From Ferroacidibacillus organovorans (GTDB taxonomy: Bacteria; Bacillota; Bacilli; Alicyclobacillales; SLC66): a stretch of DNA of 20,000 nucleotides. Each line of letters starts with the position of its first letter. Within the stretch, counting starts at the first letter, position 1. The notes beneath the pieces were generated by a model. That model ran no database searches and was not told where the DNA came from. It worked only from the letters and a program-made list of their open reading frames with translations. The translations under genes and the position numbers were made by a program. Positions 5,810 to 14,273 of the stretch are shown here, piece by piece. The stretch spans positions 48,247-68,246 of the forward strand of contig NZ_LSUQ01000011.1 in the NCBI RefSeq assembly GCF_001642725.1, read 5' to 3'.

Positions 5810-7156
5810 TCACGCTAACTGCTGAACCCAATTGCGTGTCCTTCGATACCACAGAAAGAGTCCTGCACGCAACGCGTTATCTGCAGCAATGCTGACCCAC
5901 ACGGCTGGCAAGCCAAAGCCGAGGCGCCAGGCAAAGAGGTACACACCCAGTGTCCGAACACCCCAAATGCCAATCATCGTAGTGATCATGGGAAACTTGC
6001 TGTTGCCTCCGGCTTGAATGGCGGATGTGTCTACCAAGACGGCCGCCAAAAAAGGCTGGGAAAAGACATCGATGGCAAGGATGATGAACAGCAGGTGTAT
6101 GACATGTGGGTTGTGTGTGAATAAAAGGCCGATCCAAGGACTTAACACACACAAAAGAACGGCAACCGCTGTCATGGATACTGCCGACTCCATGTAGCTA
6201 AAGCGTCGATACATCCTCACATCAGATTCATTGCCGCTTCCAATGGCTTGTCCGATCGTGGCTGTGGTTGCGACAGCAAATCCGTTTCCAATTGCCGATC
6301 CGAATGTCGTGATGGTTCCTGCAATATTGTGTGTTGCATACACATCAATACCCATCCGCACGATGAGTCCAAAATATACGACTTGCCCAAGGCGCATGGA
6401 AAGGCGTTCCAATGCGGCAGGAATCGCAAATTGTGTCATACTCCAGCCGAGCGAGGTTGACAACTTCAAGTCTGAAACGCGCAAGGTGAGTGAGTCCACG
6501 CTACGGGATTTTTGCCAAAGGCGAATCAGAGCGTAAAGACGCGCGAGCACCATGGCGATGGCCGCGCCCTTGATGCCGAATCCGTGAAACGGTCCCACCC
6601 CGAAAATCAGCACATAATCAAATACAACGTGCAGACCGTTCATTTCAAGTCCCACACGAAATGGGGTCTTGGTGTCGCCAATAGCCCGAAATGCCGCCGA
6701 CTGCGCAGTAAACAACGCGATAAATGGAGAGATTCCAAGTACAACTGAAAAATACGGGAGTGCCGTACTCTGCAGAGTCCCTTGAGCGCCCATGACATGC
6801 AGCAGCGGTACCGCGAAAAAGAGGGAGATAAGCGAAGCGAAGAGGCCGATGATGAATGCAATGACAAAACCATGCCAAATCACTGAATGACTTCGTTCTT
6901 TGTTTTTCGCGCCAACCGCGCGGGACAAAAAGACCGAAAGCGCCGCCGACACCGCCGTAAACACACCAATGTAGGTCATACTGTAGACATTGGTCACACC
7001 CACTGCATCAATCGCGATAAGTCCCAGCTTCGCAATAAAGAAGGTGTCAACAACACCCAATAAATTCTGCAGATACGCCTCTCCAATGGCAGGCAATGCA
7101 ATATTGAACACCTGTTTAGCTTGAGTTGGGATTCGAGTGGCCAAACCCATACGCAT
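5810..7156 (-). CDS. MATE-family efflux transporter
   Basis: About 12 hydrophobic segments; VDTFFIAKLG, RAIGDTKTPF, GIKGAAIA motifs. Confidence 0.92.
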   Translation of the reverse strand: MRMGLATRIPTQAKQVFNIALPAIGEAYLQNLLGVVDTFFIAKLGLIAIDAVGVTNVYSMTYIGVFTAVSAALSVFLSRAVGAKNKERSHSVIWHGFVIAFIIGLFASLISLFFAVPLLHVMGAQGTLQSTALPYFSVVLGISPFIALFTAQSAAFRAIGDTKTPFRVGLEMNGLHVVFDYVLIFGVGPFHGFGIKGAAIAMVLARLYALIRLWQKSRSVDSLTLRVSDLKLSTSLGWSMTQFAIPAALERLSMRLGQVVYFGLIVRMGIDVYATHNIAGTITTFGSAIGNGFAVATTATIGQAIGSGNESDVRMYRRFSYMESAVSMTAVAVLLCVLSPWIGLLFTHNPHVIHLLFIILAIDVFSQPFLAAVLVDTSAIQAGGNSKFPMITTMIGIWGVRTLGVYLFAWRLGFGLPAVWVSIAADNALRAGLFLWYRRTRNWVQQLA

Positions 7157-7173
7157 CTTCCTTTCCGCGCCCC

Positions 7174-7191
7174 TCTTGAACTAGTTCAAGA
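7174..7191. repeat. Perfect 18-bp palindrome TCTTGAACTAGTTCAAGA
   Basis: Read directly; lies between the DUF925 remnant stop and the MATE RBS. Confidence 0.85.
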
Positions 7192-7207
7192 CATTTTTCC
7201 ACGTCTG

Positions 7208-7399
7208 TCACGGATGGATGATCCGAAGCCGCTGCCATTTTTCACACCAATCCTTTGTCGCTACCCGGTCATCATAAATCTTTTGTTTATTCCCCGATAT
7301 GAAAAAAGGAGTTGGACGAACAATTAAGTTTACCAAATCATCAACTCCATACGGCGCAACCAACTCCACCTGACCATCGTTGTCCAAATAAGCTCCGAT
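7208..7399 (-). pseudogene. C-terminal fragment of a DUF925-type nucleotidyltransferase family protein
   Basis: IGAYLDNDGQVELVAPYGVDDLVNLIVRPTP...YDDRVATKDWCEKW; N-terminal part absent. Confidence 0.75.
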
Positions 7400-7547
7400 G
7401 TATAGTTCCCAGCACCACAAACCACATCTAAAACTTGATCTTGATTACGTACCTGTAGATGTTGTCTGAGCCTATGTACAATCTCTGAATCGGCTTTGCG
7501 CGGGTATCGTAGATCTTACCGATCTCGTCGAATAGCTCACTCAACAT
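7400..7547 (-). pseudogene. N-terminal fragment of a class I SAM-dependent methyltransferase, frameshifted and truncated
   Basis: GGGGGG RBS, ATG 7547: MLSELFDEIGKIYDT / frameshift / RKADSEIVHRLRQHLQVRNQDQVLDVVCGAGNYT (motif I). Confidence 0.75.
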
Positions 7548-7597
7548 ACTTCCCCCCAACTTCATAACCCTGCAACCCACTCAATGACCATCACATT

Positions 7598-8134
7598 CTA
7601 AGCGAGGTCAATGTCCTCAAATAGTATATACGTGTTCTTTTCGATTTCCTGAAAGACACGAATGAAATCAACTGAGAAAGTCGGGAATGGAAAAAGAGTT
7701 ATCGACGCAAATGACCTCATTTCGCTGATTTCCTCTGAACTCATACCCCAATGGGTTTGTCCTAACGTTAGATGCGGGATGAATCGTTCCATCTCCATAT
7801 ACTGTTTCATAACTTCTGGTGGCGGTGAAACAGCTTCAACAAGCCGCTCGTGGAAGTCGTGAATTTCAGAGGATTCCACACTTAAATAGGCAACAGCCTC
7901 ACCAAAAGTTTTAGGTTGATCAATCGATACTGTGAATCGCGGAAATGATGCACAGGTACGTTTAATTGACTCCAGCCAGCGCAAATCGTCACCCAATCCG
8001 CTCTGCGCTTTGACGGTAATGTGGGGTTCGGCGACTTCCCATGTCCGATTGCTTTGCCACCTCTTCTGAAACTCGACAATCCTTTCTTTATAATCCGTTG
8101 GTGGAACGATTCCGACAAAATACTGCACCGTCAT
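7598..8134 (-). CDS. 2H phosphoesterase (2'-5' RNA ligase family)
   Basis: Two HxT motifs, PHITV and PHLTL; start reassigned to ATG 8134. Confidence 0.87.
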   Translation of the reverse strand: MTVQYFVGIVPPTDYKERIVEFQKRWQSNRTWEVAEPHITVKAQSGLGDDLRWLESIKRTCASFPRFTVSIDQPKTFGEAVAYLSVESSEIHDFHERLVEAVSPPPEVMKQYMEMERFIPHLTLGQTHWGMSSEEISEMRSFASITLFPFPTFSVDFIRVFQEIEKNTYILFEDIDLA

Positions 8135-8166
8135 ACCCCCGTCTATTTTTAACCGCCGAATAGAAA

Positions 8167-8199
8167 TCAAGGAGGGATGTGACGCCCTCCCCTCCTTGA
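8167..8199 (-). terminator. Probable intrinsic terminator
   Basis: TCAAGGAGGG...CCCTCCTTGA 10-bp stem followed by TTTCTATT on the minus strand, just after the stop at 8211. Confidence 0.6.
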
Positions 8200-8210
8200 G
8201 CAAATGGCAT

Positions 8211-8662
8211 TTACGACTTGCTGGCCACCATCATCATTTCAAAGTCGTCAATGGTAAGTGGCTTACGTTCAAATTTCCTTGTTGCGCAACCAAAACCAGC
8301 ATCGACTTCAAAGCAAGAATGCTCCTTCACATAAACAAATTGCCGCATCGAACTCAGGCTCGAACTGCATCCGTTTGGCATCTTGAACATGAAATTCCGC
8401 ACTGAGATTTTCCACGTCAGACGTTTTATTTGCAATGACGACAAAGCATTCCGAGATGTCTATGCAACGGTGCAAAATCCACGACGAGCCAATTCCAAAC
8501 TGTGCCGTCCTGCACCACAGCCAACATCCAAAATTCTGGAACCGACGGGTAAGTTCAACAACTTCATCAGAAAATCAACTTCTTGAACGCTTCCCTTCGC
8601 AAACCCATACTCAAGATAGTTTCCGCCTAAAAAATCTCCTATCGAACGGTAAAATGTGCCAT
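8211..8662 (-). pseudogene. Class I SAM-dependent methyltransferase pseudogene (two frameshifts plus an apparent internal deletion)
   Basis: MAHF/YRSIGDFLGGNYLEYGFAKGSVQEVDFL...RILDVGCGAGRHSLELARRGF..TV/IDIS...FDAAICLCEGAF // FEVDAGFGC...DDFEMMMVASKS*. Confidence 0.82.
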
Positions 8663-8668
8663 ATACCC

Positions 8669-9538
8669 CTAATCATAGTGATCTATACCGGAATATACAT
8701 CAACACATCGGATTACTTCCTGACGAACACGATCCCAGTTGAGATCATTGTTATCTATGACTTTCTTTCGTAACGGAAGTTGTCTCAAAACTTTTCGCTC
8801 TATATGGGTACGCACTACGAGAAATTCCACAAGCCCATCAAAACCTGTCAGCCCGTGACTTAACCCGTAACCCTGTTTTGTAAAATACTGAGTTACACCC
8901 TCTTTCCACTCCGATGAACGTTTCTCAAACGCCCTGTTTAGCGTGACGCGTACATCGCCAGGATGGAAATAGATGAGCTGAGGAAACAGCGGTTTAATGA
9001 CGTTTGCCAACTCTAACACATAATTGATAATCGCTTCTTCTGGTGCATCATAGCGACCGAGCATCGCTGTGAGGGGGTTCTGAATGAAACAACATTCAAA
9101 AATGGTTATTTCGTCCCTTTGCAGTTGCGTCTGTACGAACTCACGCCATCTAGTCAGATGCACTTCGCAGTATCGCTCTAACGGCAATATGCCATCGTAA
9201 ATGTCATGCTGCATAACGTCTGCCAAAAGCTCGTCTGGAAGTACATCACCCATTTCACGTCTACACTTACCATATGGAATAAACTTATAAGCGCCCCTGT
9301 CCTCAGTCATCGACCGAATCAACGCTATAGATGCGGAGTGTTTCTGCAAAATCCTGTTGTATTCCTGAACAGTGAAACAGGCGACTTTATCGTAATCAGC
9401 AGGATGATCCAAATCTCCTTCAAGAAAGAGGCTTACCTTCACCCCTGATTCTATTAAATGATCATAGATAAACTGAGCCGTGGTGGTCTTTCCTAATCCC
9501 CATACGCCTTCAACGACGATCAGTTTACACTTTGTCAT
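8669..9538 (-). CDS. Hypothetical P-loop protein, nucleoside/nucleotide kinase-like N-terminus
   Basis: LIVVEGVWGLGKTT Walker A; GGAGG RBS before ATG 9538; intact 289 aa. Confidence 0.75.
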   Translation of the reverse strand: MTKCKLIVVEGVWGLGKTTTAQFIYDHLIESGVKVSLFLEGDLDHPADYDKVACFTVQEYNRILQKHSASIALIRSMTEDRGAYKFIPYGKCRREMGDVLPDELLADVMQHDIYDGILPLERYCEVHLTRWREFVQTQLQRDEITIFECCFIQNPLTAMLGRYDAPEEAIINYVLELANVIKPLFPQLIYFHPGDVRVTLNRAFEKRSSEWKEGVTQYFTKQGYGLSHGLTGFDGLVEFLVVRTHIERKVLRQLPLRKKVIDNNDLNWDRVRQEVIRCVDVYSGIDHYD

Positions 9539-9745
9539 TGGAATTGTTCCTCCGATTCGCATAAGGAAGCGTTTGGGGATCTGTATTTTTTCCTCATTAT
9601 AATTTTAAAATTAAAAAATTACTAGTCATGCATTTCTAAACATGTTGCTAAAAATTATAGTCCTGCCCGTTTTCTCGTTTGAAACAGATGTCTATTTGTG
9701 TTGAAGCAAGTGATTATTGTTTAGAACTGAGGAATTTATGGGGCT

Positions 9746-9792
9746 ATAACTCGCGCTCCAACCTCGCCACGCACTCCACATGTGTCGAGTGC
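9746..9792 (-). mobile_element. attR-like site: duplicated 3' end of rlmD
   Basis: Minus strand reads HSTHVECVARLEREL*; 14-bp ACGCACTCCACATG (9769-9782) is identical to 12751-12764 inside rlmD; GCACTC-N10-GAGTGC inverted repeat. Confidence 0.85.
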
Positions 9793-9816
9793 TTAATATT
9801 GACATGAAAAGAGCCA

Positions 9817-10000
9817 TCATTCGGCCCCCGAAGACAATTGGGTTTCAAATCGGTCATGGATAACAATTTCATTGTAGTCCTTAACTTCAACACACTCAAT
9901 CAAGCGGTGCAGTACGTCACAAAGCAATGATGGACTACCAGTTTCCATCGCGGACTAATTTAAATCCCTGTTGTAGATCCCTTTGCTATTGTGGGTGATG
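9817..10000 (-). pseudogene. C-terminal remnant of a large serine recombinase
   Basis: GIYNRDLN*SAMETGSPSLLCDVLHRLIECVEVKDYNEIVIHDRFETQLSSGAE* resembles the LIxxIEV...I.IHYRF tail of serine integrases; ends ~25 bp from the att copy. Confidence 0.65.
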
Positions 10001-10033
10001 TCTAACAAAAAAGTCTACTTCAATACCAATGAA

Positions 10034-10048
10034 GGGTGTCAGACACCC
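10034..10048. repeat. REP-like palindrome GGGTGTC-A-GACACCC
   Basis: Perfect 7-1-7 inverted repeat; partial copy GTCAGACAC at 12625-12633. Confidence 0.6.
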
Positions 10049-10057
10049 ATGGTGCCT

Positions 10058-10874
10058 TTACAGCAGCACACTCTCATTTAAAAATCGATTGTCCCTGACG
10101 ATTTTTCTTATCTTTTTTATCGTGTTTGCGTGTTTTGGAACTCCGACGATCCGGTCGAGCAGTAGCAACCTTATGCAGGCAAGCGCATCAAAGATCTCCA
10201 ACTCGTTTGTCGTTACGCGTATCTCATTTTGATAATTGTGCAAAAACGTCAGGCTTTTGCTCTCACTGGATCCCCAAATTGCCCATTCGTCCAGTCAATC
10301 ACCGTGTATCGTCCATTTTCTTCTACGATATTACCTAAATTAAAATCGCCGTGAATGATTCGGTCCATGTTCATATCTGCGGACGCAATGAGACGGATCA
10401 GTTCCTCTTTCATCGACGGAAACGCCTCAATCCCTGAATAGAAATACTCAACAAAATCACACCTAGCGAGCACATTACCTCCCAATTTCTCCGGATGCAG
10501 CCGATGAATGTCAGCTAGAAGAGAGGCGACTATCTTAAAATGTTCGGACTTACCTTCGTTAGTGCAGCGCCGTGATAACGGGTTAGCAGCACACTATCCC
10601 CGGTCCAGGTTCGCCCACAGGCAATCGGCACCGACACCTGAACTCTCTGAAGATGTAGAGCTTCCAAAAGCCGATATTGGCGTAGAATGTCGGGTTTAGA
10701 TCGTTTATTCCGCACCTTCAACACAAAATGCTCCTCCCCTTGCGTAATCTTAACCACATCTGCCTCAAGCCCCGGTGAAAGAGGGTTAAGCGTAAGTTCA
10801 GCACACGAAGTAATCAGGTTATCCAAAATTGGATTTGTTTCATGCCATTCAATACCCGCCAATGAGTGAGTCAC
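10058..10874 (-). pseudogene. Aminoglycoside phosphotransferase/choline kinase-like pseudogene split over three frames
   Basis: FVLK N-lobe, HGDFNLGN catalytic motif and IDW; frame breaks near 10550 and 10265; AAAGGA RBS. Confidence 0.85.
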
Positions 10875-11305
10875 GAGATTTTCCTTTCTCTTTTGCGTCT
10901 TGTTAAGTTTACTTGCCCACTAATGACATAATCCAAATAATTCCTTGATGTACACTTATGTCACGTGGTCAACAATTAAGGTATCAAACATACATATGTT
11001 ACAAATCTGTCAAAAACAATAATCTAGTAATCAGCACGACACAAAGGATGATGCTGAAATAAAAATTAATTCTCTGATGTATGAGCTAAAGCCCTGTTTT
11101 TCAAAAAAATCACCCAAACACTTGAGCAGCAATTGCAAAAAGCTGTCCGCTGTGTGGAGGTAGTTCATCTCCGTTTAAAAGCATGATTGGGGGTTGAGTA
11201 ACCATCTCAAATCCGCACCGAACCGATATTGATATAAATTGTGTTCGCTTTTAATGTGGTATCCTTTGGTCATAGACCGTGTCAATAAAGTGCGAGGAGA
11301 TAGAG

Positions 11306-11655
11306 GTGACCACCCAACGAGAAGGACACACTACGAGTACGAGGCCTGCGTCCAGACCCATGATACCTTCTTCGTTTTCATTCATGGACTGGTCGTATTT
11401 GCTGGATGAACTGAACCGCTTGATGGAGGCCTTGCATATCAAAAGTTTTTAAGTCGTTGCTCATAAATGACGAAGGGAACGGGAAGAACAATCCGTTGCA
11501 GCGATGAACAAACAGGGATTTTGATACAAGATTACTCTGGGCTCGCCCGCATGCTGAGGAAGGAACAGCAGGATGCTCTCATTGACTGGCGCGAATACCA
11601 GAAGCGAATGGAGCAACATCGGCAAAACGGGATCAAACACGCTTCCTTATACTAA
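11306..11655 (+). pseudogene. Possible degraded hypothetical gene
   Basis: GAGGAG RBS plus GTG 11306, 48 codons to a stop, then a 62-aa ORF in another frame; no recognisable family. Confidence 0.3.
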
Positions 11656-11813
11656 TCGACAGAGTCACTAAACAAACGGGCAAGTCATTCCCGATCACAG
11701 TCGAAACTTGTCGAGAGGCTCGTGAATTGTGACTGAGTCAACGTATTCTTTGCTTTCGTAGAAGCTACGTTGTACTGCTAGTTTTTCGGAGCTTTCTTAA
11801 AAACCACCTGACC

Positions 11814-12227
11814 TTAGCCGATACTAAATGTGCCAATAACAGTCTTTCCATTAACAGCATAAAGCGGGATTTTTCTAACGCTACCAGGTTTTCGGTCCAT
11901 TGCCACAGCCTCTGCTGGCGTCTTGGGCATTGGCAAGAATTCGTCTTGTTTTAGCACATAACCAATAATGGGGTGTCCATTAGCATCTACCCCTTGTGTC
12001 AAAATCAAATCCGGCTCTGTGGCTAGAGATGTTGAATACATATCAGAGCCATACGTTTGGCCATTCTGGTTTTTTGGAAAGTCGATCTTGTGTACTATGG
12101 GTAGGGAATTCGGATGAGGTATAAATAGAGATTTTGCAAAGCTGAAACCAGACATACTCACCGTTATCCCTAGGATGAGAACACCGCCAATGACTGTCGT
12201 GCGCCCCGCAAACGGTTTAAACCACAT
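11814..12227 (-). CDS. Small secreted or membrane-anchored hypothetical protein
   Basis: N-terminal signal/TM segment; FPKNQNGQTYGS, EPDLI, PKTPAEA, IPLYAVNGKTVIGTF; GGGGGAAG RBS. Confidence 0.8.
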   Translation of the reverse strand: MWFKPFAGRTTVIGGVLILGITVSMSGFSFAKSLFIPHPNSLPIVHKIDFPKNQNGQTYGSDMYSTSLATEPDLILTQGVDANGHPIIGYVLKQDEFLPMPKTPAEAVAMDRKPGSVRKIPLYAVNGKTVIGTFSIG

Positions 12228-12239
12228 TTTCTTCCCCCC

Positions 12240-12365
12240 TTAGTAAGCTAGACTCGGGCTCTGATAAGTCTGGAAAGTTGTATACCCGTTGCCGTTATAA
12301 GCAGCGGTTGCTCGGATAGAGTAGTAAGTACCATTATTGTATTCGTAAGGCGTATTCTGCCTCAT
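12240..12365 (-). pseudogene. Tyr/Asn-rich 41-aa ORF, likely the C-terminal remnant of the upstream partner gene
   Basis: MRQNTPYEYNNGTYYSIRATAAYNGNGYTTFQTYQSPSLAY*; AGGAGG 11 nt upstream; stop 12 nt before the next start. Confidence 0.55.
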
Positions 12366-12664
12366 TCCGCCGCACGCCTCCTATAAAAACTCCATTACTG
12401 TTACAGAAATTACTGCAGTGGCCTTATTACGTGTTTACTAGAATGTTCTGTCGAATCACAGTGATAGCTTACCATAACATAATTATCTTTTCATGTCGGA
12501 ATTTGTCGTTCGCCGAAATGTCATCATCGATCCTATCTCAGTTCACGAAAACTAGATCATTATACAATCAGTTTAATAGACATGTTAGCACTACAACATC
12601 ACGTCGCTCCTACTTCAATTGTAGGTCAGACACTTTCTTGAAGACGCCTCTTCCGGTGTAAACG

Positions 12665-12693
12665 GAAGGCTCGATCCAATAGGTCGAGCCTTC
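12665..12693 (-). terminator. Hairpin terminator after rlmD
   Basis: GAAGGCTCGA-N9-TCGAGCCTTC 10-bp stem; weak U-tract (CGTTT). Confidence 0.65.
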
Positions 12694-12725: not shown

Positions 12726-14273
12726 TTAGTCCACTCTGTATGTTGACACGACGCACTCCACATGGCTCGTCTGCGGGAACATGTCCAACGGCTGTGCGAC
12801 ATCGACCGCATACCCGCGATCGGCGAGAATGCGCAGATCGCGCGCGAGTGTGGCCGGATTGCACGAGACATAGACGATCCGTGCGGGGGCCGCGTCACAG
12901 ATCGCATCAAGCACCCGCTTCTCGCAACCCGCGCGCGGCGGGTCGAGAAACACCACGTCCGGATGCTCATCCTCTGCCAAGCGTGACACGACATCTTGCG
13001 CATCGCCGAGCATCATCCTGACATGGTGCATGCCATTTCGCTCAATGTTCATCTGCGCGTCGCTCACCGCTTCCTCGACGATCTCAACACCAACCACCGA
13101 ATCGGCCTGTCGACCCGCCATCAGCGTGAGCGTGCCAATGCCTGCGTAGATATCCCACACACGCTGCGTCCCCGTGAGACCCGCCAAAGCGAGCGCCTCC
13201 GCGTAGAGCCGCTCCGCCTGTGCCGGATTGACCTGCATGAACGAGCGCGACGAGACGCCAAATGTCAGCCCCGCGATACGCTCTTCCATCTGCGGTTGCC
13301 CGAACATGACGCGCTCCGCCACACCGTCATCCGCAATCAAACCCACCACTTTGACGCGCTGTGCCTCAAGTTCATTCCGAAACAAACGCACATCTTCAGG
13401 CGAAAATACCACACCTGTCTCTACGAGCAACGCAATCAGCACCTCCGCCGACCCATTCGTGCGCACACGGACGTGGTGCACCCCTCGCCACGGCGAGAGC
13501 ATGGCAGTCGACGTCCCCGCCCCCTGCCCCGGCGAAGCTGCCAACGTGTCATCACCCCGCTCCGGCGAAGCTGCCAACGTGTCATCACCCCGCTCCGGCG
13601 AAGCTGCCGACAGATCAGCCCCGCGCACTGCCTCATCCACACGGCGCATCGCCCTAACGATGCGCAACACATGTTCCGGCACAATCGCACAATCATCCGT
13701 ATCCACAGGATCGTGGCTGCCTTCTTCCACAAAGCCCACGGCGAATCGACCGTCCTCGACCGAAACCGTCCACGTCACCTTGTTGCGATACTGCCACACG
13801 TTTGGCGACGGAATCACGTCGCGCACCCACGCGCGAACATCTTCCTTAGGAAACCTCCCGATTCGCTCAAGCGCATCCAAAACGGTCTGCTTCTTCATCC
13901 GCAGTTGCGCCTCTGCGCTCATGTGCTGCAGATTGCACCCGCCACACTCCGCGTACACCGAACAGCGCGGCAAGACGCGCTCCGCCGCCGCTTCCACCAC
14001 CTGCAACAGCACCGCCCGCGCAAACGACCGCTCCACACGCTCCATGCGTACTGTGACCCGCTCTCCGATCAGCGCGCCTGGCACAAACACCGTGAAGCCC
14101 TCGACACGCGCGACACCCTCACCCTGAAAGCCGAGTCGATCGATCACCACTTCATAGGTCTGCCCCAGACGCACCGGAACAGCGCGCGCCGGCGTTCGCT
14201 CCCGGCGTCCATCCACACTCGCACCAGGCGTTCGCTCCCGGCGTCCACCCGCGCGCCCACTCTCCCGCTCCAT
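12726..14273 (-). CDS. rlmD: 23S rRNA (uracil-C5)-methyltransferase RlmD/RlmCD
   Basis: TRAM domain, CSVYAECGGC Fe-S motif, SFMQVN, DPPRAG, YVSCNPATLARD, DMFPQTSHVECV. Confidence 0.96.
   Translation of the reverse strand: MERESGRAGGRRERTPGASVDGRRERTPARAVPVRLGQTYEVVIDRLGFQGEGVARVEGFTVFVPGALIGERVTVRMERVERSFARAVLLQVVEAAAERVLPRCSVYAECGGCNLQHMSAEAQLRMKKQTVLDALERIGRFPKEDVRAWVRDVIPSPNVWQYRNKVTWTVSVEDGRFAVGFVEEGSHDPVDTDDCAIVPEHVLRIVRAMRRVDEAVRGADLSAASPERGDDTLAASPERGDDTLAASPGQGAGTSTAMLSPWRGVHHVRVRTNGSAEVLIALLVETGVVFSPEDVRLFRNELEAQRVKVVGLIADDGVAERVMFGQPQMEERIAGLTFGVSSRSFMQVNPAQAERLYAEALALAGLTGTQRVWDIYAGIGTLTLMAGRQADSVVGVEIVEEAVSDAQMNIERNGMHHVRMMLGDAQDVVSRLAEDEHPDVVFLDPPRAGCEKRVLDAICDAAPARIVYVSCNPATLARDLRILADRGYAVDVAQPLDMFPQTSHVECVVSTYRVD
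13529..13608. repeat. 33-bp in-frame tandem repeat (about 2.4 copies) in rlmD
   Basis: CCGGCGAAGCTGCCAACGTGTCATCACCCCGCT at 13529 and 13562, partial at 13595; encodes AASPERGDDTL. Confidence 0.95.
14191..14247. repeat. 21-bp direct repeat with 36-bp period in the rlmD N-terminus
   Basis: GGCGTTCGCTCCCGGCGTCCA at 14191 and 14227; GRRERTP twice. Confidence 0.9.

What the first reader, a model, noticed from the sequence alone, without database searches (positions are those of the whole stretch)
7174..12620. Possible decayed integron-like cassette array separated by dif/Xer-like sites
Seen: unrelated small genes, mostly co-oriented, whose spacers carry related ~30-bp arm-core-arm motifs, written in gene orientation. 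12620-12591(-) AATTGAAGTAG gagcgacg TGATGTTGTAG; 11788-11758(-) CGAAAAACTAG cagtacaac GTAGCTTCTAC; 11666-11695(+) CACTAAACAAA cgggcaag TCATTCCCGAT; 10930-10901(-) TATGTCATTAG tgggcaag TAAACTTAACA; 10025-10015(-) TATTGAAGTAG (left arm only); 9680-9651(-) AAACGAGAAAA cgggcagg ACTATAATTTT; 7586-7558(-) CATTGAGTGGGTTGCAGGGTTATGAAGTT; 7191-7174 TCTTGAACTAGTTCAAGA. Most sit just after a stop or just before an RBS, and the one plus-oriented copy follows the plus-strand gene remnant at 11306-11655. Established: 11 + 6-8 + 11 is tyrosine-recombinase (Xer/dif) site geometry. Inference: remnants of a consensus near TATTGAACTAA-CGGGCAGG-ATAGTTCAA that I recall, unverified, from Bacillales accessory arrays, i.e. 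single-gene cassettes exchanged by site-specific recombination. Copies are very degenerate and no tyrosine recombinase is in the window.
Basis: partly seen in the sequence, partly recalled or inferred. Interest (0 to 1): 0.8.

Follow-up and report, generated by a model that had tools for sequence, protein, structure and literature searches.

The report
Decayed imported gene islet beside rlmCD

Summary
All 8 quoted strings are at the stated coordinates. As a family they do not beat chance. Right arms are as alike as random 11-mers. A de novo motif search on the 8 spacers scores no better than shuffles. Held-out sites score negative.

Window 7199-12656 is a 43.8% GC patchwork in a variable slot between matE and rlmCD. 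It holds 3 intact genes and at least 9 gene fragments. One fragment is a fossil attR junction of a large-serine-recombinase element that targets rlmCD (rumA), imported with foreign flanking DNA.

The recalled 28-mer is real elsewhere. It gives 21 matches in 17 of 401 genomes of the class and 0 in reversed controls. It forms co-oriented arrays between small APH, GNAT, nucleotidyltransferase and methyltransferase genes. Nucleotide homology between genomes breaks exactly at it.

P-loop and LigT homologues of the islet's genes carry the motif elsewhere. The window keeps at best vestiges: an exact 11-nt centre 98 nt upstream of its P-loop gene (5.7 bits, E 0.099). G000 has no significant copy.

Verdict: no cassette array that works here. 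A decayed relic is possible. The valuable lead lies in other genomes.

The parts
5810..7156 (-). matE efflux gene, the native left flank
   Evidence: Pfam MatE, E 4e-42. It is 93.6% identical to sister species G001 up to window 7171.
7174..7191 (.).
   Evidence: It lies 18 nt upstream of the matE start. It is unique in G000 at up to 2 mismatches. The stretch up to about 7198 is partly conserved upstream of matE in G025 and G027. True-site matrix score -63.2.
7208..7549 (-). NTP_transf_6 nucleotidyltransferase pseudogene
   Evidence: Pfam PF06042 matches the C-terminal 70 aa only. There is an in-frame stop at 7428-7430. Only residues 122-184 of the 184-192-aa homologues align.
7558..7586 (-).
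   Evidence: It lies inside the 82%-identical block shared with G007 and is its least conserved part. It is not among the 11 R1 hits at E up to 10.
7598..8134 (-). Intact LigT-like 2H phosphoesterase (178 aa)
   Evidence: Pfam 2_5_RNA_ligase2, E 1e-15. It is 79% identical at protein level to G007 and 50-55% to f17 genomes. Its homologues have a motif copy beside them in 3 of 23 loci.
8167..8199 (-). Terminator-like hairpin after the methyltransferase gene
   Evidence: It is conserved in G007.
8211..8660 (-). SAM methyltransferase pseudogene
   Evidence: Fragments lie in three frames. It is 77% identical to G061, which has about 256 more bases.
8669..9562 (-). Intact P-loop protein of family NF005250 / PRK06761 (297 aa)
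   Evidence: NCBIfam 286.6 bits against a cut-off of 270. Best relative is Paenibacillus forsythiae at 66%. Neighbours are not shared in 80 loci.
9651..9680 (-). It holds the exact 11-nt motif centre at 9661-9671.
   Evidence: R1 gives 5.7 bits, E 0.099. A promoter-like TTCAAA-18-TATAAT lies at 9683-9654. The left arm aligns to the terminator stem of the G052/G054 element.
9670..9746 (-). First 75 nt or so of a repeated element that follows rlmCD in family f2 genomes
   Evidence: 75-80% identical to G052 and G054, and 71-72% to G027 and G028.
9744..9782 (-). Foreign rlmCD 3' end (chromosome-side arm) with the att core CATGTGGAGTG at 9772-9782
   Evidence: The 14-nt core occurs only twice in G000, here and in rlmCD.
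9783..9948 (-). Last ~44 codons of a large serine recombinase gene plus the element-side att arm
   Evidence: 84% nt identity over 158 nt, and 66% over 44 aa, to the 513-aa recombinase of G050. The element-side arm matches at 41 of 45 positions.
10015..10046 (+).
10058..10874 (-). APH-family phosphotransferase pseudogene in three frames
   Evidence: Pfam APH on two pieces. The ORFs lie in three frames.
10901..10930 (-).
   Evidence: It lies 27 nt upstream of the start and overlaps promoter-like hexamers. True-site matrix score -4.6.
10962..10990 (+). IS-end-like 29-mer
   Evidence: 27 of 29 identical to sequence 35-39 nt from the ends of contigs C2, C3 and C68.
11107..11245 (-). 3' fragment of a GNAT acetyltransferase gene
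   Evidence: 83% nt identity to G056, where the gene is an Acetyltransf_18 protein.
11257..11409 (+). 5' fragment of an alpha/beta-hydrolase gene
   Evidence: 75% nt identity to G032. The full gene there is Abhydrolase_1.
11476..11557 (+). Short piece of an ISL3-family transposase gene
   Evidence: 77% nt identity to G009, where the gene is DDE_Tnp_ISL3.
11666..11695 (+).
   Evidence: R1 gives 4.4 bits, E 0.26 at 11669-11684. It is the best true-site matrix score of the island, -1.2.
11758..11788 (-).
   Evidence: Homology to G001:C57 ends at 11777, inside it. True-site matrix score -53.9.
11814..12227 (-). Intact 137-aa gene that I call lipoprotein-like. That label is my reading of the sequence. 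No tool result backs it.
   Evidence: 93% nt identity to G001:C57. No Pfam or NCBIfam match.
12240..12369 (-). 3' fragment of a 154-aa secreted-protein gene
   Evidence: Homology to G001:C57 ends at 12369. The full gene is in G001.
12591..12633 (+).
   Evidence: True-site matrix score -27.0.
12665..12693 (-). Native rlmCD terminator. Homology to G001 resumes at 12657.
   Evidence: It is conserved in G017 and G032.
12726..14273 (-). Uninterrupted rlmCD (rumA-type) gene with the att core at 12754-12764, the native right flank
   Evidence: Pfam TRAM plus tRNA_U5-meth_tr. attB-type sequence.

Best explanation
Window 7199-12656 is a low-GC patchwork of horizontally acquired accessory DNA. It sits in a slot between matE and rlmCD that differs even between sister species.

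It holds three intact genes: a LigT-like phosphoesterase, a PRK06761 P-loop protein and a 137-aa lipoprotein-like gene. It also holds at least nine gene fragments. Several ordinary processes built and eroded it: import of foreign DNA, insertion-sequence activity and deletions.

One junction (9744-9948) is a fossil attR. It was left by a large-serine-recombinase element that had integrated into the conserved HVEC codons of the rlmCD gene of a different family. That junction arrived here together with the donor's flanking DNA.

Most are chance similarity in AT-rich spacers that also carry promoter hexamers, ribosome-binding regions and hairpin stems.

Shown: the anatomy, the foreign origin, the att junction, and the lack of a shared motif.
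Inferred: the order of events, and how the foreign block was inserted.
Left open (my estimate is about 40%): that f, c and the a/e left arms are true vestiges of the 28-bp module-boundary site found in other Bacilli. The islet's gene families travel with that site elsewhere.
For: Composition: island GC is 0.438, against 0.557 and 0.583 for the flanks and 0.520 for the genome.

Sister species G001: homology stops at 7171 and resumes at 12657. G001 holds other content there, namely an IS256 fragment plus type I-C cas genes, and CDF, DUF6904 and IS21 genes.

Broken genes and fragments. IS-end-like 29-mer.

The att junction:
- The recombinase 3' end is 84% identical over 158 nt to a bona fide large serine recombinase with Resolvase, Recombinase and Zn_ribbon_recom domains.
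- The element-side arm matches G050 at 41 of 45 positions, the chromosome-side arm at only 22 of 45.
- The chromosome-side arm plus 75 nt match the rlmCD 3' flank of G052, G054, G027 and G028.
- attL and attR were found in G050 (element about 19.6 kb, GC 0.449), G017 and G054. An uninterrupted attB was found in G000, G001, G032 and G052.
- Single serine integrases that target rumA are described for streptococcal ICEs (PMC4701971; I read the passages on rumA).

No shared motif.

Synteny across two proposed sites.

Recombinase census: no integron integrase over the cut-off in G000. There are 9 tyrosine recombinase genes over the cut-off, none on the window's contig.
Against: - The exact 11-nt centre of the true motif lies 98 nt upstream of the P-loop gene on the coding strand. 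That is where 7 of 80 homologues carry a full copy.
- c and d are the two best matches of the island to the true-site matrix.
- Four distinct places score E up to 1.2 with model R1, where about 1.2 are expected. The model's E-values are rough.
- The a/e two-block repeat occurs twice here and nowhere else in 401 genomes of the class, and I cannot explain it.
- How a foreign attR junction came to lie 2.8 kb downstream of an intact native rlmCD is not explained.
- The G000 assembly is a draft of 98 contigs.
Confidence: 0.55

Rival explanations
1. The islet descends as a block from a genuine array of single-gene modules bounded by the 28-bp 11-6-11 site. The sites have decayed beyond recognition since import into a host that lacks the system.
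For: - Real arrays exist, with the same kinds of cargo: APH, GNAT, nucleotidyltransferase, methyltransferase and P-loop kinases.
- Breakpoints fall at the site.
- P-loop and LigT families carry the site elsewhere.
- The closest LigT relatives outside the order are in f17, the family with the arrays.
- The centre 11-mer lies in the expected place.
- The genes are co-oriented.
Against: - No hit in the window reaches even the weakest copies of a true array. The window's best hits are 5.7 and 4.4 bits. L161 copies range from 6.7 to 37.5 bits.
- The right arms are random.
- The de novo search is negative.
- The methyltransferase, LigT and nucleotidyltransferase block is syntenic without sites in G007 and G061.
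- The islet also holds recombinase, rlmCD and IS debris that is not array cargo.
- Specific genes of the G232 array are not homologous to the islet's genes.
Confidence: 0.2
2. The stretch 10015-12633 is one discrete insertion bounded by a 24-32-nt two-block direct repeat (CTACTTCAAT ... GTCAGACAC). That would make it the remains of an unknown small mobile element or a duplication scar.
For: The two copies are the only matches in 64 genomes of the order and in 401 of the class, with 0 in controls. They are direct, and they flank the APH-to-secreted-gene segment.
Against: 27 of 300 island shuffles give some 9+9 gapped two-block match. The gapped alignment score is reached by 24.5% of shuffles. 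I found no empty site and no recombinase or transposase that fits.
Confidence: 0.1
3. The region is native DNA of this lineage, and its low GC and broken genes come from relaxed selection alone.
For: The matE leader up to about 7198 is native. AT-biased decay is known in pseudogenes (general knowledge, not from a call).
Against: - It is absent from sister species G001 apart from one 593-bp piece on another contig.
- Pieces match different genera and families at 70-84% identity.
- The intact genes have the same 44-45% GC as the broken ones.
- The rlmCD fragment is of the f2 type.
Confidence: 0.05

Closest known systems
rumA (rlmCD)-targeting elements with a single large serine integrase, as in ICEs, IMEs and prophages of streptococci and Clostridioides (PMC4701971, passages read)
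   Same: - The target is the same: the 3' part of the 23S rRNA U5-methyltransferase gene.
- The recombinase gene lies at the element end next to attR.
- A short shared core is flanked by imperfect inverted arms.
- attL and attR pairs were seen in G050, G017 and G054.
   Different: - Only a fossil is present here: the last ~44 codons of the recombinase plus attR, with no attL and no element body.
- The chromosome-side arm is foreign, of the f2 type, while the host's own rlmCD is intact.
- In the streptococcal elements attR lies inside the integrase gene. Here the recombinase reading frame stops 34 nt before the core.
Integron cassette arrays (intI, attI, attC)
   Same: Small, unrelated, mostly co-oriented accessory genes of resistance-enzyme-like families.
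   Different: - No integron integrase is over the cut-off in G000.
- There is no series of attC-like imperfect palindromes at gene ends.
- There is no shared site.
- The true arrays in other Bacilli use a 28-bp site and have no linked tyrosine recombinase gene.
dif-like (pdif) modules of Acinetobacter plasmids and Xer-dependent elements. This comparison is recalled and comes from no call.
   Same: The 11-6-11 geometry of the true motif, modules of one or a few genes, and no dedicated recombinase nearby.
   Different: As I recall, pdif sites alternate in orientation around modules. The true motif copies are co-oriented within a cluster. Xer binding is untested. The window has no intact site.
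Repetitive extragenic palindromes (REP/BIME-type), as an alternative nature for the true motif
   Same: A short palindromic intergenic repeat in many copies, at which ordinary repeat-driven recombination could shuffle neighbours.
   Different: The central 6 bp are strongly conserved and asymmetric, and the orientation is fixed relative to genes. The outermost variable pair (position 5 with position 26) can pair in only about half of the 21 copies, by my own reading of the rows of alignment A4. That speaks against an RNA stem.

Membership tests
Integron | Integron integrase (intI) in or beside the array | tested here: not met
   TIGR02249: 0 matches over the cut-off of 265 bits in G000, best 89.5 bits. 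No tyrosine recombinase gene on contig C11.
Integron | attC-type imperfect palindromes at the 3' end of each cassette | tested here: not met
   Local inverted repeats (24 pairs within 150 nt) show no recurring structure at gene ends. No shared spacer motif.
dif/Xer-type module array | Sites with two conserved 11-bp arms around a 6-8-bp centre, alike among copies | tested here: not met
   Right arms 2.8 of 11, equal to random. Arm symmetry within a site is 2 to 6 of 11. Leave-one-out scores are negative for 4 of 5.
dif/Xer-type module array | Binding and cleavage by XerC/XerD (CodV/RipX) | not testable with these tools
   Needs EMSA or in vivo recombination assays.
   R1 gives 0 hits in the window at E up to 1 in the 80-kb search, against 21 minus-strand hits in L161. 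On the island alone the best hits are 5.7 and 4.4 bits. G000 has 0 hits at E up to 0.01, against 8 to 26 in four f17 genomes.
   P-loop: 7 of 80 loci have a copy 60-140 nt upstream on the same strand. LigT: 3 of 23 loci have a co-oriented copy within 105 nt. Other islet genes were not tested.
rumA/rlmCD-targeting large-serine-recombinase element | Recombinase with Resolvase, Recombinase and zinc-ribbon domains | tested here: inconclusive
   The window keeps only the last ~44 codons, which have no Pfam match. They are 84% nt identical to the end of a complete 513-aa recombinase in G050.
rumA/rlmCD-targeting large-serine-recombinase element | att core inside rlmCD with distinct element-side and chromosome-side arms | tested here: met
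   The core CATGTGGAGTG is shared by attB, attL and attR of G000, G001, G032, G052, G050, G017 and G054. The window's element-side arm matches G050 at 41 of 45.
rumA/rlmCD-targeting large-serine-recombinase element | Complete element with attL, cargo and recombinase | tested here: not met
   There is no attL-type arm and no homology to the G050 element body. The host rlmCD is uninterrupted.
Genomic island | Deviant composition, absence from close relatives, and mobility-gene remnants | tested here: met

The most novel reading that the evidence does not exclude
Bacilli hold an undescribed gene-cassette system. Single accessory genes, many of them resistance-enzyme-like, are bounded by a 28-bp 11-6-11 site: TTGAACTAAC-GGGCAG-GTTAGTTCAA, with a B. 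cereus-group variant. They are exchanged at that site without a linked integrase, for instance by the host's Xer-type recombinases. On this reading the islet in this window is a decayed, imported piece of such an array, and its P-loop gene still carries the centre of the site.
Probability: 0.22. Interest if true: 0.8.

Novelty: new member of a known kind. Interest (0 to 1): 0.5.

Why it matters
For this window the result is mostly a correction. The spacers are not a recombination-site family, and the locus is an ordinary decaying islet. Its one real recombination scar comes from a serine recombinase element of the rumA-targeting kind. That kind of element is now seen in three further genomes of this order (G050, G017, G054). 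G017 and G054 belong to different families, yet their recombinases are 87% identical.

The value lies in what the check turned up outside the window. I found no Rfam family. I found no relevant paper for its strings in three searches. If exchange at this site is enzymatic, it would be an integron-like way of shuffling accessory genes in Gram-positive bacteria. That can be tested directly with the genomes named here by handle.

Tried and rejected
- Rfam on the islet (E up to 1) and on four relatives' loci gave no match.
- No tRNA gene lies in the window.
- Plasmid search: only single-gene matches at 68-75% identity, to the P-loop and LigT genes. Phage search: no match.
- I tested whether the P-loop gene's neighbours are conserved. 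Of 80 loci, none shares another islet gene except one with a nucleotidyltransferase 6 kb away.
- I considered that the island was integrated by the serine recombinase at the host's own rlmCD. I rejected this. The host's 3' end and terminator are the native f1 type, shared with G001, G017 and G032.
- I first read 9744-9950 as a plain rlmCD duplicate. One search corrected this.
- I considered the palindrome at 7174-7191 as an island end or att site. I rejected this because it lies in the conserved matE leader.
- G000 has no close relative of the 190-aa tyrosine recombinase of G001:C57 (best 30% identity), nor of the rlmCD-targeting serine recombinases (34% or less).
- The G050 element body shares nothing else with the islet.
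- The repeated element of G052 and G054 shows a terminator-like hairpin, but 0 of 22 pairs show compensatory change.
- Two direct protein comparisons between islet genes and G232 array genes found no homology.
- Earlier-findings look-ups returned nothing for this genome or for the motif.
- Script slips: one search printed nothing, one search failed on an import, and one search stopped at an N after printing its main results. One search repeated the rest.

Full report
**1. The observation**

All eight strings are in the sequence at the stated places and strands. They lie in spacers of a run of small, mostly minus-strand genes. As a family they do not stand up.

- The five right arms share on average 2.8 of 11 positions. 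Random 11-mers of the island share 2.80. The six left arms share 5.0 of 11, but they were chosen by eye.
- I took eight spacers (1381 nt) from my gene map. The best gapped local alignment scores 12.5. That score is reached in 24.5% of 200 dinucleotide shuffles.
- A de novo one-site-per-spacer search gives 13.21, 18.41 and 21.22 bits at widths 11, 20 and 30. These are reached by 30, 5 and 37 of 40 shuffled sets.
- Leave-one-out scoring matrices give negative log-odds for 4 of 5 held-out 30-mers, with ranks 266 to 1050 of 10912. Only c ranks high, at 11.

**2. What the region is**

GC is 0.438 for 7199-12656. The two flanks have 0.557 and 0.583, and the genome 0.520. Intact and broken genes alike have 0.44-0.46.

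The sister species G001 matches the window at 93.6% up to 7171 and at 91.2% from 12657 on. Between these points only 11777-12369 matches, at 93.1%, on a separate 3.9-kb contig. G001 has other content in the slot:
- next to rlmCD, an IS256-family fragment and type I-C cas genes;
- next to matE, CDF, CWC, DUF6904 and IS21 genes.

The gene map, read in gene orientation from rlmCD, is as follows.
- Native terminator (12665-12693), then 290 nt of non-coding DNA.
- The 3' fragment of a 154-aa secreted-protein gene and an intact 137-aa lipoprotein-like gene. Both are as in G001:C57. "Lipoprotein-like" is my reading of the sequence. It has no family match.
- On the other strand, the 5' end of an alpha/beta-hydrolase gene and a short ISL3 transposase piece.
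- The 3' end of a GNAT gene.
- A 29-mer that is 27 of 29 identical to the ends of a multi-copy element that breaks three contigs.
- An APH gene broken into three frames.
- The recombinase/rlmCD junction described in section 3.
- An intact PRK06761 P-loop gene.
- A broken methyltransferase gene, which lacks about 256 bases that G061 has.
- An intact LigT-like gene.
- A nucleotidyltransferase gene with an in-frame stop and a missing middle.

The matE leader, including the 18-bp palindrome, is partly conserved upstream of matE in G025 and G027. It therefore belongs to the native flank.

**3. The recombination scar that is really there**

The 43-codon ORF at 9817-9948 is the C-terminal end of a large serine recombinase. 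It shows 84% nucleotide identity over 158 nt, and 66% over 44 residues, to a 513-aa protein of G050. That protein has Resolvase, Recombinase and zinc-ribbon domains.

It is followed by the core CATGTGGAGTG and by a second rlmCD 3' end.

Comparing junctions shows three states:
- uninterrupted rlmCD (attB) in G000, G001, G032 and G052;
- attL and attR around a 19.6-kb element of GC 0.449 in G050;
- attL and attR of a second recombinase type in G017 and G054.

The recombinases of G017 and G054 are 87% identical to each other and 32% identical to G050's.

The window's element-side arm matches G050's at 41 of 45 positions. The chromosome-side arm matches at only 22 of 45. That chromosome-side arm, with the next 75 nt, resembles the DNA that follows rlmCD in four family-f2 genomes instead: G054 at 75%, G052 at 79-80%, and G027 and G028 at 71-72%.

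In G052 and G054 that DNA is a repeated element of about 170 nt with a terminator-like hairpin. G052 has 5 copies and G054 has 3.

The host's own rlmCD keeps the native 3' end and terminator. These are shared with G001, G017 and G032. So the junction is a fossil attR formed in a foreign genome and imported with its flank.

Single serine integrases that target rumA, with att sites at the 3' ends of rumA and of the integrase gene, are described for streptococcal ICEs (PMC4701971, passages on rumA read).

How the block was inserted here is not shown.

**4.

G007, of another genus, shares one 765-bp block at 82% identity. Both ends are cut by other DNA.

G061 keeps LigT next to the methyltransferase gene at 77% identity.

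So homology runs across two proposed sites.

The P-loop gene has relatives in 80 fetched loci. None shares another islet gene within 6 kb, except one with a nucleotidyltransferase.

**5. The recalled consensus is real, but elsewhere**

In G000 the 28-mer has 0 matches at up to 4 substitutions and 1 at up to 6.

Across 401 genomes of the class it has 21 matches at up to 3 mismatches. These fall in 17 genomes, 11 of them among the 33 genomes of family f17. There are none in the 7 f1 and 28 f2 genomes searched, and none for the reversed control.

The site is a discrete unit of about 30 bp. It is a 10-bp inverted repeat, TTGAACTAAC and GTTAGTTCAA, around a conserved GGGCAG. Its flanks are unrelated.

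Array structure:
- In 8 of 21 fetched 3-kb loci there are further co-oriented copies 300-1300 bp away.
- A sequence-only model (R1) finds 21 minus-strand copies in 15 kb of G232. They bound nearly every gene or small gene block there.
- The genes in that stretch are AAA_18, CPT, two APH, GNAT, NmrA, MarR, a methyltransferase, a cold-shock protein, NTP_transf_2 and a pentapeptide protein.
- Whole genomes give 26, 24, 18 and 8 copies in G232, G285, G342 and G390 at E up to 0.01, and 0 in G000. The copies are clustered, with one strand per cluster.
- No tyrosine recombinase gene lies in the large clusters.

Breakpoints:
- An alignment of five junctions shows 90%-plus identity of an upstream gene X up to the site in G342, G150, G390 and G285. 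Three different downstream genes follow.
- One downstream gene B is near-identical from the site onward at two places of G390, behind different upstream genes.

That is the signature of exchange at the site. The exchange could be site-specific, or it could be homologous recombination at a short repeat.

I found no Rfam family and no relevant paper by string or keywords. The 15 papers found are unrelated human primer matches.

**6. Link back to the window**

Seven of the 80 P-loop loci, all of the B. cereus group, carry a lineage variant of the site (CTTAAACTAAC-GGTCAG-GTTACTTTAAG). It lies 60-140 nt upstream of the gene on the coding strand. Two further loci, L098 and L068, hold arrays.

Three of 23 LigT loci carry a co-oriented copy within 105 nt of the gene.

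In the window, R1's best hit is the exact 11-nt centre AACGGGCAGGA at 9661-9671 on the minus strand. It lies 98 nt upstream of the P-loop start (5.7 bits, E 0.099). The next hits are c (4.4 bits, E 0.26) and e (2.3 bits, E 1.2).

With a matrix of true sites, c and d are the best two positions of the island, but they score -1.2 and -4.6 bits. True sites score 37.7 to 48.0. Six of 100 shuffles do as well.

The left part of f is homologous to the terminator stem of the f2 repeat element. Its right part holds a TATAAT box. So only the centre could be a relic.

The left-arm-like strings a and e belong to a two-block direct repeat. That repeat is found nowhere else in 401 genomes, yet 27 of 300 shuffles give some comparable match.

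I put the chance that any of these is a true vestige at about 40%.

**7. Verdict**

There is no working or coherent site family in this window and no tyrosine-recombinase system here. The locus is an ordinary decaying islet with a serine-recombinase att fossil.

The interest score reflects that lead, not the window.

Limits of this work:
- G000 is a draft assembly.
- R1's E-values are rough.
- The class sample is 401 genomes.
- Only two cargo families were tested for the motif link.

Noticed in passing
L161 (G232:C1:3930000-3949999). Also G285:C1 5782871-5810813, G342:C1 4786841-4816985 and G390:C1 3721310-3818210.: True arrays: co-oriented copies of a 28-bp palindromic site bound nearly every small accessory gene. 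Homology between genomes breaks exactly at the site (alignment A6). There is no linked tyrosine recombinase gene. I found no Rfam family and no relevant paper.
   Followed up: partly
L037, L040, L044 (G052) and L038, L041 (G054). Remnant at window 9670-9746.: A repeated non-coding element of about 170 nt with a terminator-like hairpin. G052 has 5 copies and G054 has 3, often as pairs about 320 bp apart. One copy lies directly after rlmCD. Not in Rfam, and no covariation was seen.
   Followed up: partly
L015 (G001:C57) 469-2649: The homologues of the secreted-protein and lipoprotein-like gene pair lie between a 190-aa tyrosine recombinase gene and a broken second copy of it. The recombinase has the catalytic domain only and matches invertase-like models. 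The contig also holds a DUF3847 gene. This may be an invertible or mobile unit.
   Followed up: no
L016 and L014 (G001): In the sister species the same matE-rlmCD slot holds an IS256 fragment plus a type I-C CRISPR-Cas operon on one side. On the other side it holds CDF, DUF6904 and IS21 genes.
   Followed up: partly
G000 contig ends C2, C3 and C68. Window 10962-10990.: A multi-copy element ends about 65 nt inside three contig ends. The window holds a 27-of-29 look-alike of its terminal part.
   Followed up: partly
L011 (G017) and L026 (G054): The rlmCD-targeting serine recombinases are 87% identical in two different families, with near-identical attL arms. This points to recent transfer of that element across families.
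   Followed up: partly
window 10015-10046 and 12610-12633: The two-block direct repeat CTACTTCAAT ... GTCAGACAC is found twice here and in none of the other 400 class genomes. Its meaning is unknown.
   Followed up: yes
window 7174-7191: A perfect 18-bp palindrome lies 18 nt upstream of matE. It is unique in the genome. It may be an operator of the efflux gene.
   Followed up: partly
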